A stretch of DNA of 64,000 nucleotides from Escherichia phage slur07, in the sequence record NC_028780.1; one strand, given 5' to 3'. The notes under the pieces are model-generated. The model did not search any database and was not told the DNA's origin. It was given only the letters and a program-made list of their open reading frames with translations. Position numbers and translations under genes: made by a program. Below are positions 32,942-34,603 of this stretch, piece by piece; the first letter of the stretch is position 1, and the number at the start of each line of letters is the position of its first letter.

Positions 32942-33277
32942 ATGTCTGAAGTACAACAGCTACCAATTCGTGCTGTCGGTGAATATGTTATTTTAGTTTC
33001 TGAACCTGCACAGGCTGGTGATGAAGAAGTTACAGAATCAGGACTTATTATCGGTAAACGTGTTCAAGGTGAAGTTCCTGAACTGTGTGTAGTTCACTCT
33101 GTTGGTCCTGATGTTCCTGAAGGTTTCTGCGAAGTTGGTGATTTGACTTCTCTTCCAGTTGGTCAAATTCGAAATGTTCCGCATCCTTTTGTAGCTCTGG
33201 GTCTTAAGCAGCCGAAAGAAATTAAACAAAAATTCGTTACTTGTCACTATAAAGCTATTCCGTGTCTTTATAAGTGA
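32942..33277 (+). CDS. 31: gp31 co-chaperonin (GroES analogue)
   Basis: 111 aa matching T4 gp31 ([40 protein letters not shown]...). Confidence 0.92.
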
Positions 33278-33403
33278 TATAAATAATAATATGAATTGAG
33301 TTTCAATTCTATGTGGTAGTCTACAACTGAGAGATCTGTCGAAAGAAGATGAAATTCAGAAGAACGTGACTACCGAGTTTTAATCTCTAACGAGAATTTT
33401 TAA

Positions 33404-33652
33404 ATGATTAAACAATTACAACACGCTCTTGAACTGCAACGAAACGCATGGAATAATGGTCACGAAAACTATGGCGCATCTATTGATGTTGAAGCCGAAG
33501 CTCTTGAAATCCTGCGTTATTTCAAACATCTGAATCCTGCTCAAACTGCATTAGCTGCTGAGCTTCAGGAAAAAGATGAACTTAAGTATGCTAAGCCTCT
33601 GGCTTCTGCTGCACGAAAAGCAGTTCGTCACTTTGTGGTAACATTGAAGTAA
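33404..33652 (+). CDS. rIII: RIII lysis-inhibition accessory protein
   Basis: 82 aa matching T4 RIII. Confidence 0.88.
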   Translation: MIKQLQHALELQRNAWNNGHENYGASIDVEAEALEILRYFKHLNPAQTALAAELQEKDELKYAKPLASAARKAVRHFVVTLK

Positions 33653-33940
33653 TTTATTGGAGATTCACTGCCTTAGTGTGAGCTAAATCGAGGAGCCGTC
33701 GAACTGTCTGATTAATGATTCGCAAATCATTATAGTTTTAAGACCCCGGCAGTTTTACGGTGTACCTCTTGAATGTTACTATCATGCGTCAGAAAAGTGT
33801 TATCTGTGTAAGTCTTGGTGGTATGATGACGAGGTTTATGGTTATCCTGTCGGTAAATATTCAAAACCTAAGTACCCCCTTGAGGGCTTGCGCAGGCAAT
33901 GCCAATAAGTCCTGCATTTTCATTTAAAAGAGAATTTATA

Positions 33941-34117
33941 ATGGCAAAACAAGTTAAAGCAAAGAAAGCAGTTGAAAAGAAAGTTGGTGATTCTAAACGC
34001 GCTGGCTACAAGCGTGGGTCGAACTCTCGTATCAATCAAACTGTTGAGAAGATCATGCGCCGAGCACGTGCGGTTCTTCGAGATGATGCTTCTCGTTTTG
34101 GTAAGCAGAAAGCATAA
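33941..34117 (+). CDS. small lysine/arginine-rich basic protein (58 aa)
   Basis: ATG 33941 (MAKQVKAKKAVEKKVGDSKRAGYKRGSNSR...), followed immediately by a strong terminator; the ORF-track start at 33899 is probably too far upstream. Confidence 0.45.
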   Translation: MAKQVKAKKAVEKKVGDSKRAGYKRGSNSRINQTVEKIMRRARAVLRDDASRFGKQKA

Positions 34118-34122
34118 GTTGA

Positions 34123-34147
34123 GGACTCCTTCGGGAGTCCTTTTTTA
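34123..34147 (+). terminator. intrinsic terminator with UUCG tetraloop
   Basis: GGACTCC-TTCG-GGAGTCC followed by TTTTTTATTTT. Confidence 0.7.
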
Positions 34148-34170
34148 TTTTCCAAAGATTGCATAAAGTT

Positions 34171-34204
34171 GTTTACAGTATAGCTCCTTTGTGATAGTAT
34201 TATC
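34171..34204 (+). promoter_or_regulatory. candidate early promoter
   Basis: -35 GTTTACA at 34171-34177 with downstream A/T-rich -10 candidates (TAGTAT/TATTAT). Confidence 0.4.
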
Positions 34205-34227
34205 TTACACAAACAAAGGAGAATAAA

Positions 34228-34560
34228 ATGAAAACGATTAATCTGAACGCTGCAGTTAAAACTAAATGCTTCAATGGTAAATATGATGAAACTATGTGGT
34301 TCTTAATGGCAGTTGAAGGTGATATTATTGAAGTAGAAACAACAGAAGGTATGGGAACAGATTTCACCTTTACAATTCAAGTTCATAATTTCTTTACTGG
34401 TTGGATTTATGAATTGAATACAGTAATCGTTGGAAAAATTGAACAAAATGAATTAGGCGAATGGCATTATGTTACAGCTCGCCAACGTGCAGAACGCTTA
34501 ATTGAGAAGATGAAAAAAGTTGGTAAACTTGACATGCAGCATTGGAAAGTAGTAAAATAA
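34228..34560 (+). CDS. hypothetical protein
   Basis: 110-aa ORF with SD AAGGAG upstream. Confidence 0.55.
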   Translation: MKTINLNAAVKTKCFNGKYDETMWFLMAVEGDIIEVETTEGMGTDFTFTIQVHNFFTGWIYELNTVIVGKIEQNELGEWHYVTARQRAERLIEKMKKVGKLDMQHWKVVK

Positions 34561-34562
34561 TT

Positions 34563-34603
34563 GTTTACTTTGGTACAGGATATGATATTATATACCTGTA
34601 CCG
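34563..34603 (+). promoter_or_regulatory. early promoter embedded in a stem-loop
   Basis: -35 GTTTAC at 34563-34568; 8-bp inverted repeat GGTACAGG (34572-34579) / CCTGTACC (34595-34602) with the A/T-rich -10 candidate TATTAT in the loop. Confidence 0.45.

What the first reader, a model, noticed from the sequence alone, without database searches (positions are those of the whole stretch)
33653..34147. About 290-bp non-coding stretch with a perfect palindrome, followed by a small basic protein gene and a strong terminator
After rIII there is no convincing ORF for about 290 bp. The stretch contains the perfect palindrome TAATGATT-cgca-AATCATTA near 33711-33730 and an extended -10-like TGgTATGAT near 33822. 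It is followed by a 58-aa Lys/Arg-rich protein and a UUCG-loop terminator. It could be a structured leader, a small RNA or a protein-binding site.
Basis: seen in the sequence. Interest (0 to 1): 0.35.

Follow-up and report, generated by a model that had tools for sequence, protein, structure and literature searches.

The report
Modular structured RNA spacer before T4 gene 30.9
The 288-base gap between the phage T4-type genes rIII and 30.9 is not junk or a hidden gene but a chain of conserved RNA hairpins and one pseudoknot, and that pseudoknot also turns up in unrelated phages, so it looks like an undescribed phage RNA element whose job is still unknown.

Summary
The window is a T-even phage. 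rIII ends at 33652 and a 288-bp gap without a conserved ORF follows. The palindrome is at 33713-33732, 2 nt off. Then come gene 30.9 (33941-34117), a UUCG-loop terminator and an early promoter.

T4 has the same gap (244 bp) with nothing annotated in it. Comparison of about 60 distinct T4-like spacers (120-416 nt) shows a mosaic of RNA modules on the + strand that differ in presence and order between phages.

The window holds these modules:
- a small hairpin;
- an H-type pseudoknot (33828-33871), present once in 63 of 65 T4-like loci;
- two small hairpins;
- a weak hairpin that pairs the 30.9 ribosome-binding site.

Compensatory changes and U·G pairs support the long stem-loop, the TGgTATGAT hairpin and the pseudoknot. 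The pseudoknot has no Rfam match. It also occurs in uncultured non-T4 phages, including inside a tRNA cluster. It resembles the P1/pseudoknot half of pistol ribozymes but lacks their catalytic core.

Function is inferred, not shown. Most likely the spacer is a cis-acting structured leader or processing region for 30.9. A processed stable RNA is the main rival. The promoter reading is weak. gp30.9 remains of unknown function.

The parts
33404..33652 (+). rIII gene (upstream neighbour; stop codon 33650-33652)
   Evidence: 100% identical protein to T4 RIII
33665..33681 (+). Module H: small hairpin TCAC-TGCCTTAGT-GTGA with a conserved loop
   Evidence: Variants in other phages keep the stem by changes on both sides (TCGC..GCGG, TTGC..GCAG) and keep the UACCNNAGU-type loop. 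Seen by inspection; not formally counted.
33690..33768 (+). Module C: 79-nt extended stem-loop. Helices: GAGG 33690-93 / CCTC 33765-68; CCGT 33696-99 / ACGG 33757-60; AACTGTC 33702-08 / GGCAGTT 33748-54. The tip is the palindrome.
   Evidence: Alignment A6: 98.2% of cells paired, 5 pairs with changes on both sides (1 of 500 shuffles reach this), covariation 0.123 against 0.076 (0 of 500). 11 sequences have a U·G pair at 33707/33749.
33713..33732 (+).
   Evidence: Compensatory variants are TATCGATT/AATCGATA (L090) and TATCGATT/AATCGGTA with a U·G pair (L066). The loop is UGCG or UACG in relatives. The hairpin is deleted in L007 and L028.
33778..33822 (+). Module D: hairpin with outer stem ACTATCATG/CTTGGTGGT and inner stem CAGA 33790-93 / TCTG 33803-06.
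   Evidence: Alignment A7: 96.2% paired, 4 pairs changed on both sides (0 of 500), two columns of U·G pairs. T4 lacks this module through a 44-bp deletion.
33828..33871 (+). Module A: H-type pseudoknot. H1 is GAC-G-AGG 33828-34 with CCT-GTC 33846-51. L1 is UU 33835-36. H2 is TATGGTT 33837-43 with AACCTAA 33865-71. The A-rich loop GGTAAATATTCAA is 33852-64. The covariance-model match spans 33820-33877.
   Evidence: Alignment A5 (37 distinct sequences): 82.3% paired against 69.3% shuffled (0 of 500); covariation 0.347 against 0.142 (0 of 500); slid controls 0.04-0.15; 4 compensatory pairs in each helix. Model R1 scores 72 bits here and finds nothing else in the window. There is one copy upstream of 30.9 in 63 of 65 T4-like loci. 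In T-evens, including this window, H2 is reduced to GGTT/AACC plus one pair.
33872..33890 (+). Module E: mini-hairpin GTACCCCC-TTGA-GGGCTTG
   Evidence: The stem varies as CCC/GGG, CCTC/GAGG and GCC/GGC in relatives, and the loop is often UUCG or CUUG. In some phages the module sits directly after the rIII stop codon (by inspection).
33892..33915 (+). Module F: hairpin GCAGG-CAATGCCAATAAGT-CCTGC, followed by the U-rich ATTTTCATTT
   Evidence: L028 and L032 have GAACTGG...CCAGTTC around the same loop YRRTGYCAATAAGW. L062 has a G·U pair. Only two stem types exist, so support is modest. More distant phages carry other hairpins here.
33916..33935 (+). Module G: weak hairpin ATTTTC / GAGAAT that pairs the 30.9 Shine-Dalgarno sequence (GAGA 33930-33)
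   Evidence: In most of the 30 distinct spacer tails the minimum-energy fold pairs the purine-rich SD with an upstream pyrimidine tract (UCUCC/GGAAGA, CCUC/GAGG, AUUCU/AGAAU). The energies are only -0.1 to -5.4 kcal/mol and the mean z is -0.75.
33941..34117 (+). Gene 30.9: 58-aa basic protein of unknown function
   Evidence: The MAKQ start is conserved, and the upstream in-frame ATG at 33899 is not. PHROG 1427 'unknown function', no Pfam family. AlphaFold2 from the single sequence gives two helices (2-22 and 30-57), pLDDT 79.6. No PDB match by sequence or by fold.
34121..34148 (+). Intrinsic terminator: 9-bp stem, UUCG loop, T-run
   Evidence: Identical in T4 and G28, and annotated as a terminator in G28 and NBG2.
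34172..34200 (+). Early promoter for 30.8 (TTTACA-N17-TAGTAT with an upstream TG). Together with the terminator it forms a PeSL-type cassette.
   Evidence: PeSL definition for the T4/PST pair: stem-loop AGNA-loop-TCNT plus TTTACW-N17-TAYWAT (PMC4122927).

Best explanation
The rIII-30.9 gap is transcribed on the + strand as part of the rIII/30.9 message. It works at the RNA level as a composite, modular structured spacer made of a chain of independently folding elements: hairpin H, long stem-loop C with the palindrome at its tip, hairpin D, pseudoknot A, and hairpins E, F and G. These elements have been swapped, lost and gained as cassettes among T4-like phages.

Shown:
- the absence of any conserved ORF;
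- the folds of A, C and D, supported by compensatory changes;
- the strand, from U·G pairs;
- the near-universal presence of pseudoknot A upstream of 30.9;
- a stable hairpin plus an SD-pairing mini-hairpin next to the 30.9 start in most spacer variants examined.

Inferred: the array acts in cis. The stable structures would punctuate and protect the polycistronic transcript, that is, separate the fate of rIII mRNA from that of 30.9 mRNA and block nucleases. The proximal hairpins would damp or gate translation of 30.9, as known for T4 genes e, soc, 49 and I-TevI. Pseudoknot A, with its invariant loops, would be the recognition site for a protein or for a tertiary contact.
For: Identity of the locus and absence of annotation in T4.

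No conserved ORF; frame-breaking indels; MAKQ start conserved.

Pseudoknot A: 82% of cells paired, covariation 0.347 against 0.142, 0 of 500 shuffles, slid controls 0.15 or less. One copy in 63 of 65 T4-like loci, always on the + strand upstream of 30.9.

Stem-loop C: 98% paired, 5 compensatory pairs. Hairpin D: 96% paired, 4 compensatory pairs.

U·G pairs in C and D would be C·A mismatches on the other strand. The + strand folds at -78.2 kcal/mol with z = -2.06, against z = -0.83 for the - strand.

The SD is paired in the minimum-energy fold of most distinct tails, using different complementary sequences.

T4 precedents for SD-sequestering hairpins and for a leader pseudoknot 67 nt upstream of gene 32: PMC3014915.
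Against: No expression or probing data were available, so the function is inferred only.

The distance from pseudoknot A to the 30.9 start varies from about 64 to about 280 nt, with other modules in between. That is unusual for a translational operator.

The same pseudoknot occurs in other phages with no 30.9 next to it: between two tRNA genes, and in a 780-nt non-coding stretch. This argues for an autonomous function.

The SD hairpin is energetically weak.

In T-evens, including this window, helix H2 of the pseudoknot is reduced to about 5 pairs.

Modules C and D are dispensable in natural isolates such as RB32 and T4.

The sequences are related, so the shuffle controls overstate significance.
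Confidence: 0.5

Rival explanations
1. The modules, above all pseudoknot A, are stable small RNAs cut out of the transcript. They would resemble the tRNAs and the RNAs C and D of the T4 tRNA cluster, and would act on their own, for example as a decoy or ligand for a host or phage protein or nuclease. The position next to 30.9 would then be a matter of co-transcription only.
For: In L099 the pseudoknot fills the 58-nt slot between tRNA-Asp and tRNA-Pro, and its 3' end abuts the tRNA 5' end, so RNase P would release it. In L187 it lies about 75 nt upstream of tRNA-Pro and tRNA-Leu. In L227 it lies about 220 nt after tRNA-Ile. Phage phi92 carries the whole T4-type gap directly upstream of tRNA-Gln. 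The distance to 30.9 is variable. The loops are invariant.
Against: In T4-likes the element is always linked to 30.9 (63 of 65 loci) and never found elsewhere in the window or in the T4 tRNA region. No processing sites or stable species are documented. Reviews state that no small regulatory RNA of T4 has been characterised apart from RNAs C and D (PMC3014915).
Confidence: 0.25
2. The pseudoknot is part of a self-cleaving ribozyme related to pistol and cuts the rIII-30.9 transcript.
For: The element has the same layout as the 5' half of pistol: a P1 hairpin, whose loop pairs with a downstream strand, followed by the linker ACGUUAAAUA. Compare env25 CGUGG-UUAGGG-CCACG-UUAAAUAG... (PMC6101554) with L221 GUCGUGG-UUAGUGUUUAU-CCAGAC-GUUAAAUAAAC. 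Pistol RNAs are phage-associated (PMC4604425).
Against: There is no Rfam Pistol match at E up to 10 in the window, nor at E up to 5 in four other loci. No P2/P3 pair, no 2-nt G-U junction and no conserved purine-32, G40 or G42 equivalents are present. What follows the pseudoknot differs between phages, and in L099 it is a tRNA.
Confidence: 0.05
3. The features act on DNA. TGGTATGAT would be an extended -10 promoter for 30.9, and the palindrome a binding site for a dimeric protein or a recombination signal.
For: TGnTATGAT is a 5 of 6 match to the -10 consensus with an upstream TG. The TATGAT/TATGTT sequence upstream of the pseudoknot is conserved in many relatives. The region is a hotspot of indels and module exchange, as PeSL cassettes are.
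Against: No -35 box is present and the promoter scan does not call the site. The TG is missing in T4 and in most distant relatives, and TATGAT is absent from L029, L031 and L067. The palindrome is absent from several phages. L066 keeps its hairpin through a U·G pair, which makes sense only in RNA.
Confidence: 0.08
4. The gap is non-functional debris, that is, remnants of decayed genes or of mobile DNA tolerated in a plastic region.
For: Modules C, D, H and B are present or absent in natural isolates without obvious consequence, and gap length ranges from 120 to 416 nt. A piece of the gap has been moved into phi92 by illegitimate recombination.
Against: Compensatory changes maintain the helices. 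The last 68 nt are identical in 11 of the fetched loci, T4 and phi92 among them. Pseudoknot A is retained in phages whose RIII proteins are only 64-77% identical.
Confidence: 0.07
5. A small protein is encoded in the gap, or 30.9 starts at the upstream ATG 33899 as annotated in RB32, NBG2 and others.
For: GenBank records annotate 62-72-aa ORFs here. The ATG at 33899 is in frame with 30.9 and no stop codon intervenes in T-evens.
Against: In distant relatives the upstream extension contains stop codons and is not conserved as protein, whereas MAKQ is. The 55-aa and 44-aa ORFs have no PHROG family and are frame-shifted in T4.
Confidence: 0.03

Closest known systems
Pistol self-cleaving ribozyme (Rfam Pistol; env25, PDB 5K7C)
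   Same: Both have a hairpin whose loop pairs with a downstream strand to form a 6-7 bp pseudoknot. In both, the near-identical linker ACGUUAAAUA follows the hairpin. Both are associated with phages.
   Different: There is no P2 or P3, no G-U cleavage junction and no catalytic purine-32, G40 or G42. The hairpin loop is 11 nt rather than 6. The Rfam model does not match. The resemblance therefore concerns the fold of one half only, and self-cleavage is not expected.
Gene 32 mRNA leader pseudoknot of T4, T2 and RB69 (autoregulatory operator)
   Same: It is an H-type pseudoknot in the 5' leader of a T4-type gene. In this window it lies 69 nt from the AUG, against 67 nt for gene 32, and A/U-rich sequence follows (coordinates).
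   Different: The sequence is unrelated. The distance to the start codon varies 64-280 nt among relatives. Structured hairpins, not an unstructured tract, lie between the pseudoknot and the ribosome-binding site. No binding protein is known. The element also occurs away from any 30.9 gene.
SD-sequestering hairpins at T4 translation initiation regions (genes e, soc, 49, I-TevI)
   Same: The Shine-Dalgarno sequence of 30.9 can pair with an upstream pyrimidine tract, and this pairing is kept through different sequences in most variants.
   Different: The hairpin is weak (about -2.4 kcal/mol in the T-even tails). No late promoter inside it (TATAAATA) provides an unmasked transcript, which is how the known cases work.
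PeSL cassettes (promoter-early stem-loop) of T4-type phages
   Same: The terminator at 34121-34142 plus the early promoter at 34172-34200 fit the T4/PST PeSL description. The whole neighbourhood shows the cassette-like shuffling ascribed to PeSLs.
   Different: The modules inside the rIII-30.9 gap carry no early promoter. They are conserved as RNA folds, not as promoter-terminator pairs.
T4 stable RNAs C and D and phage tRNA clusters
   Same: These are non-coding, structured, co-transcribed RNAs of unknown function. In other phages pseudoknot A sits inside or beside tRNA clusters.
   Different: There is no sequence or model similarity to rnaC, rnaD or any tRNA. No evidence exists that the T4-type spacer is processed.

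Membership tests
Pistol ribozyme | P1 hairpin whose loop forms a pseudoknot with a downstream strand | tested here: met
   H1 and H2 are supported by covariation. The layout and the linker match env25.
Pistol ribozyme | Stems P2 and P3 around an internal loop, with the pseudoknot strand on the left shoulder | tested here: not met
   No conserved P2 or P3 exists. The sequence after H2 differs between phages and is a tRNA in L099.
Pistol ribozyme | Strictly 2-nt G-U junction (cleavage site) and about 10 conserved core nucleotides (purine-32, G33, G40, G42) | tested here: not met
   No equivalents are seen in alignment A5 or its flanks.
Pistol ribozyme | Match to the Rfam covariance model | tested here: not met
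   No Pistol match at E up to 10 in the window, nor at E up to 5 in L221, L099, L187 and L227.
Gene 32-type autoregulatory leader pseudoknot | H-type pseudoknot at a fixed distance upstream of the regulated start codon, followed by an unstructured A+U-rich tract | tested here: inconclusive
   The pseudoknot is present, and lies 69 nt from the AUG here. The distance is 64-280 nt in relatives, and hairpins intervene.
Gene 32-type autoregulatory leader pseudoknot | Binding of the encoded protein to its own leader | not testable with these tools
   Needs gel-shift assays or footprinting with gp30.9.
Intrinsic (Rho-independent) terminator | G+C-rich hairpin followed by a T-run | tested here: met
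   34121-34142: 9 pairs, UUCG loop, TTTTTATTTTC.
PeSL cassette | Stem-loop AGNA-loop-TCNT next to an early promoter TTTACW-N17-TAYWAT | tested here: met
   AGGACTCC..GGAGTCCT plus TTTACA-N17-TAGTAT; the -10 box matches 5 of 6. This applies to 34121-34200, not to the gap.
Sigma-70 extended -10 promoter | TGnTATAAT-like element, conserved and followed by a transcript start | tested here: inconclusive
   TGGTATGAT is present. There is no -35 box and the scan does not call it. The TG is not conserved in T4 or in distant relatives. Transcript starts cannot be tested here.
tRNA or tRNA-like gene | Cloverleaf detected by ARAGORN or the Rfam tRNA model | tested here: not met
   No tRNA in 33000-34600 or in L004, L006 and L007.
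preQ1-I riboswitch | Small H-type pseudoknot with an A-rich 3' tail that matches the Rfam model | tested here: not met
   The topology is similar, but there is no Rfam match and H2 is 7 bp rather than 3-4.
DUF2815 RNA (Rfam RF03084) | Match above the gathering score | tested here: not met
   14.5 bits against a gathering score of 41.2 over 33883-33943. Nothing was found in L028 and L032.
SD-sequestering initiation-region hairpin (T4 e, soc, 49, I-TevI type) | SD or AUG held in a helix; an alternative transcript starting inside the helix relieves it | tested here: inconclusive
   The SD is paired in most variants, but weakly. No late promoter lies inside the hairpin.

The most novel reading that the evidence does not exclude
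Pseudoknot A would be a new, autonomous class of phage RNA element, evolutionarily related to the P1/pseudoknot domain of pistol ribozymes. It would be spread across unrelated phages in tRNA clusters and long non-coding arrays, and would act as a processed RNA, for example as a specific ligand or decoy for a host or phage RNA-binding protein or nuclease, or as one half of a split ribozyme. The rIII-30.9 spacer of T4-like phages would then be a second 'RNA gene cassette' locus besides the tRNA region. In many relatives this locus also houses a 140-nt multi-helix RNA (module B).
Probability: 0.2. Interest if true: 0.75.

Novelty: new member of a known kind. Interest (0 to 1): 0.5.

Why it matters
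T4 is the reference phage for RNA biology, yet a 2010 review (PMC3014915) stated that no riboswitch or small regulatory RNA of T4 had been functionally characterised, and that the gene 32 pseudoknot was then the only known viral pseudoknot used in autoregulation of translation.

A spacer left blank in the reference annotation turns out to hold a pseudoknot retained in essentially all T4-like phages examined. The same pseudoknot is present in unrelated, uncultured phages next to tRNA genes. That gives a concrete, cheap experimental target in a tractable system: deletion and compensatory mutants, Northern blots, gel shifts with gp30.9.

It may also give a handle on the function of the orphan gene 30.9, and on how non-coding modules are exchanged between phages.

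Tried and rejected
Rfam scans (2 kb around the finding, the 131-nt core, the NBG2 version, four non-T4 loci, and L028/L032): nothing above threshold. The only near hits were a terminator look-alike (Atu_C8, 31 bits) and DUF2815 RNA (14.5 bits).

tRNA or tmRNA remnant, suggested by TGGAGAT matching the phi92 tRNA-Gln acceptor stem and by a T-arm-like string on the minus strand of module B: ARAGORN found none.

Similarity to T4 rnaC or rnaD: none by eye or with model R1.

Dispersed repeat or mobile element within the genome: blastn and the covariance model found a single copy in the 64-kb window.

Bacterial occurrence: none of the 80 genome pattern hits that were fetched (of at least 120) is a real copy.

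A pistol permuted so that P3 forms between GUAUGAUG and the A-rich loop: the pairing is not kept across relatives (inspection).

Long-range closing helix between 33654-33662 and the loop of hairpin F, predicted by the minimum-energy fold: rejected as a conserved feature. Phages with the same F loop but another 5' end (L057-L064, RB32) cannot form it.

Alternative hairpin GGCTTGC-GCAG-GCAATGCC instead of F: the variants neither support nor exclude it.

Literature: no paper in the held library describes this spacer. Miller et al. 2003 (PMC150520) and Driukas & Nivinskas 2003 were not available.

Cultured relatives of the L221-type contigs: no match in GenBank phages.
Full report
**What the locus is.** The window is a T-even phage (Tequatrovirus). 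A 1-kb query around the finding matches 955 phage records, the best at 99% identity. On the + strand the genes run 31 (32942-33277), rIII (33404-33652), a gap, 30.9 (33941-34117) and 30.8 (34228-34560), as in T4. T4 itself has the same gap, 244 bp long. Neither NC_000866 nor AF158101 annotates anything in it.

**Check of the observation.**
- The gap is 288 bp.
- The palindrome TAATGATT-CGCA-AATCATTA is perfect, but lies at 33713-33732, 2 nt off.
- TGGTATGAT is at 33819-33827.
- The 58-aa basic protein is gp30.9.
- The UUCG-loop terminator is at 34121-34142.

Taken alone, the palindrome is only mildly unusual. 2.1% of dinucleotide shuffles of the gap give one, and the window holds 29 such 8-bp hairpins.

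**No gene in the gap.** I collected the rIII-30.9 interval from GenBank records and from 25 + 40 IMG/VR and 17 metagenome loci found with the gp30.9 protein. This gave about 60 distinct spacers of 120-416 nt. Four observations argue against a gene:
- Among close relatives the spacer differs by indels of 1, 44, about 110 and about 170 nt. T4 lacks 33778-33821. RB32 lacks the whole 5' 170 nt. NBG2 has about 140 nt in place of the 44.
- The mechanical ORFs have no PHROG family.
- The in-frame ATG at 33899, which several records use to annotate a 72-aa product, is preceded and followed by stop codons in distant relatives.
- The MAKQ start is conserved everywhere.

**A mosaic of RNA modules.** The spacers consist of a limited set of short conserved blocks. 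Their presence and order differ between phages. The window contains the following.

*Hairpin H (33665-33681).* Relatives keep the stem by changes on both sides and keep the loop (inspection only).

On 18 distinct sequences:
- 98.2% of cells pair.
- 5 pairs change on both sides (1 of 500 shuffles reach this). Examples are CCGT/ACGG to CCAT/ATGG, AACTGTC/GGCAGTT to AACTGTT/AACAGTT and AATTGTC/GACAATT, and the palindrome itself to TATCGATT/AATCGATA.
- The covariation score is 0.123 against 0.076 (0 of 500).
- Slid controls pair at 23-63%.

teqskov and an STML-198-like phage lack the distal part, so the palindrome is optional.

*Hairpin D (33778-33822).* Six sequences give 96% pairing and 4 compensatory pairs.

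*Pseudoknot A (33828-33871).* See the next section.

*Mini-hairpin E (33872-33890) and hairpin F (33892-33915).* F is GCAGG-CAATGCCAATAAGT-CCTGC. In two distant phages it becomes GAACTGG-...-CCAGTTC around the same loop.

*Hairpin G (33916-33935).* This weak hairpin pairs the 30.9 Shine-Dalgarno sequence. The pairing recurs with different sequences in most of the 30 distinct spacer tails (UCUCC/GGAAGA, CCUC/GAGG, AUUCU/AGAAU). It is worth only -0.1 to -5.4 kcal/mol, with mean z -0.75.

*Strand.* Many of the conserved pairs are U·G, for example 11 sequences at 33707/33749 and two columns in D. They would be C·A mismatches on the other strand. The + strand of the gap folds at -78.2 kcal/mol (z = -2.06), against z = -0.83 for the - strand. 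The structures therefore belong to the + strand RNA, the sense of rIII and 30.9.

**The pseudoknot.** Module A is the only block found in essentially every spacer.

*Structure.* On 37 distinct sequences (alignment A5) I tested an H-type pseudoknot:
- H1 is GAC-G-AGG with CCT-GTC.
- H2 is the 7 nt in the loop of H1, paired with the 7 nt that follow an A-rich linker.
- The loops are invariant or nearly so: UU, AU and CGUUAAAUAUCCAAAAC.

*Support.*
- 82.3% of cells pair, against 69.3% in shuffles (0 of 500).
- The covariation score is 0.347 against 0.142 (0 of 500).
- Sliding the partners by 1-3 columns gives 0.04-0.15.
- Each helix has four pairs with changes on both sides. H1 examples are GAC/GTC, GTC/GAC, GTG/CAC and GGC/GCC. 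H2 examples are GTTG/CAAC, AGTA/TACT, GTGA/TCAC and CAAG/CTTG.
- In T-evens, this window included, H2 is reduced to GGTT/AACC plus one pair.

*Distribution among T4-like phages.* A covariance model built from A5 (R1):
- scores 72 bits at 33820-33877 and finds nothing else in the 64-kb window;
- finds exactly one copy, always on the + strand upstream of 30.9, in 63 of 65 T4-like loci; the two misses are a truncated locus and one with a different gene order;
- finds none in the T4 tRNA region.

*Outside T4-like phages.* Pattern scans of IMG/VR followed by the model found the same pseudoknot in other contexts.
- In L099 it fills the slot between tRNA-Asp and tRNA-Pro of a 12-tRNA cluster, and its 3' end abuts the tRNA.
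- In L187 it lies about 75 nt upstream of tRNA-Pro and tRNA-Leu.
- In L227 it lies about 220 nt after tRNA-Ile.
- In L221, L226, L252, L230 and L251 the surrounding sequence is nearly identical. For L221 the ORF list shows a 780-nt stretch without a credible ORF, upstream of a homing-endonuclease-like ORF and an ORF with a terminase-like ATPase motif (named by eye, not searched).
- These contigs have no cultured relative.
- None of the 80 bacterial-genome pattern hits that were fetched is a true copy.
- Phage phi92, which is not T4-like, carries the whole T4-type gap directly 5' of its tRNA-Gln.

**Comparison with known families.**

*Rfam.* Rfam 15 has no family for any part of the gap.

*Pistol ribozyme.* The closest resemblance I could find is to the 5' half of pistol. 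env25 reads CGUGG-UUAGGG-CCACG-UUAAAUAG-UUGC-UUAAG-CCCUAA-GCG... (sequence from PMC6101554). The L221 version of module A reads GUCGUGG-UUAGUGUUUAU-CCAGAC-GUUAAAUAAAC..AAACAU. Both have the same hairpin, the same loop-to-downstream pseudoknot and the same ACGUUAAAUA linker. The features that define pistol are absent, however: P2 and P3, the strictly 2-nt G-U junction, and the catalytic purine-32, G40 and G42 (PMC4604425 and PMC6154101). What follows the pseudoknot differs from phage to phage. It is therefore not a member of that family. The resemblance concerns the fold of one domain only.

*T4 gene 32 leader.* This is the nearest functional analogue: a pseudoknot 67 nt upstream of the AUG that nucleates repressor binding (PMC3014915). 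Here the distance is 69 nt, but it varies from 64 to 280 nt in relatives.

*PeSL cassette.* The terminator plus early promoter downstream of 30.9 fit the PeSL cassette described for T4-type phages (PMC4122927).

**The promoter idea.** TGGTATGAT has no -35 partner and the scan does not call it. The TG is lost in T4 through the 44-bp deletion and is absent from most distant relatives. Some relatives lack TATGAT altogether. The sequence is better explained as the junction between the 3' arm of hairpin D and the conserved 5' flank of the pseudoknot. A weak promoter cannot be excluded without 5'-end mapping.

**gp30.9.**
- It belongs to PHROG 1427, 'unknown function', and has no Pfam family.
- An AlphaFold2 model from the single sequence shows two helices (2-22 and 30-57), pLDDT 79.6.
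- No PDB match was found by sequence (best E 0.42) or by fold.
- That it binds nucleic acid, possibly its own leader, is a reasonable guess from its charge only.

**Most likely mechanism.**

*Shown:* a + strand, non-coding, multi-module structured RNA; a nearly universal pseudoknot; a stable hairpin plus an SD-pairing element next to the 30.9 start.

*Inferred (confidence about 0.5):* the array acts in cis on the rIII-30.9 transcript. It would separate and stabilise the segments of the message and damp or gate translation of 30.9. The pseudoknot would serve as the recognition element.

*Main rival (about 0.25):* the modules, above all the pseudoknot, are processed stable RNAs with a function of their own. 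The tRNA-cluster contexts and the variable distance to 30.9 suggest this.

*Less likely:* a ribozyme, DNA-level signals, debris, or a hidden ORF. The reasons are given under each rival.

**Limits.**
- The sequences are related, so the shuffle controls overstate significance. The slid controls and the number of independent pair types are the more reliable indicators.
- The alignments for modules C and D are small and shallow.
- Hairpins H, E and F rest on inspection.
- No expression, processing or binding data could be consulted.

**Verdict.** The finding is real, and it is more than an empty intergenic region. The terminator and gene 30.9 are already known. The new element is a conserved pseudoknot within a cassette-like array of RNA structures, which is absent from Rfam and from the literature held here. 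I rate interest at 0.5 and novelty as a new member of a known kind (a structured phage RNA motif or leader).

Noticed in passing
L005 (phage phi92, FR775895.2) 2501-2845: A phage that is not T4-like carries the 244-bp T4-type gap inside its tRNA cluster, in circularly permuted order: TTTATTGGAGATT + gap + ATGG joined to the last 27 codons of rIII + TTTATTGGAGATT + the rest of tRNA-Gln. The 13-nt direct repeat includes the tRNA acceptor stem, and the inner junction is a GG(C/A)AAAA microhomology. This looks like integration of a circle or tandem duplication of T4 DNA. The annotated gp113 'putative rIII' is a chimeric ORF.
   Followed up: partly
L004 (phage NBG2) about 833-972; also L014-L033, L062, L064, L069-L090: In NBG2, and in several other phages with T-even-type spacers, a 139-nt element (module B, ACGGCAAGTGCATGC...CAACAGATAAGAG) occupies the place of the window's 44-nt module D; many more distant T4-likes carry it at other positions in the spacer. 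RNAalifold predicts 40 pairs, 19 of them with compensatory changes, including a GAAA-loop hairpin and possible pseudoknots. No Rfam match. It is a candidate new structured RNA, absent from this window.
   Followed up: partly
L099 6794-6852 (-); L187 9135-9192 (-); L227 1357-1415 (+); L221 2788-2845 (+): Copies of the module A pseudoknot occur in uncultured phage contigs that are not T4-like: between tRNA-Asp and tRNA-Pro, near tRNA-Pro/Leu, after tRNA-Ile, and in a 780-nt non-coding stretch upstream of a homing-endonuclease-like ORF and an ORF with a terminase-like ATPase motif (named by eye). Group I introns lie a few kb away in L099, L187 and L221.
   Followed up: partly
window 33899-33940: An in-frame ATG 42 nt upstream of the true 30.9 start leads several GenBank records (RB32, NBG2, KMB23) to annotate a 72-aa product. 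The extension is not conserved as protein in distant relatives.
   Followed up: yes
window 33654-33662 and 33902-33910: ATTTATTGG, directly after the rIII stop codon, is complementary to CCAATAAGT in the loop of hairpin F (9 pairs, one of them U·G). The minimum-energy fold uses this to close the whole gap. Phages with the same loop but another 5' end cannot form it, so it is probably fortuitous.
   Followed up: partly
window 33659-33662 and 33692-33695: Two GGAG motifs, the RegB endoribonuclease target sequence, lie in the spacer just downstream of rIII. RIII protein has been reported to inhibit S1-dependent activation of RegB (PMC9409239). No test was made.
   Followed up: no
window 33278-33285: TATAAATA, the T4 late-promoter consensus, begins one base after the gene 31 stop codon (33275-33277), upstream of rIII. 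This agrees with reported late expression of rIII.
   Followed up: no
window 33883-33943: Sub-threshold similarity (14.5 bits; gathering score 41.2) of hairpin F plus the SD and AUG region to the Rfam DUF2815 RNA, a hairpin-plus-start-codon motif. It was not reproduced in L028 and L032.
   Followed up: yes
GenBank records ON210139, OR352952 (H9, H17) and OR525702 (L003): Evident annotation errors in public records of this region: '1,4-alpha-glucan branching enzyme' for one of the small genes under the match (30.9 or 30.8), and 'tail fiber protein' for 31.1 and 31.2.
   Followed up: no
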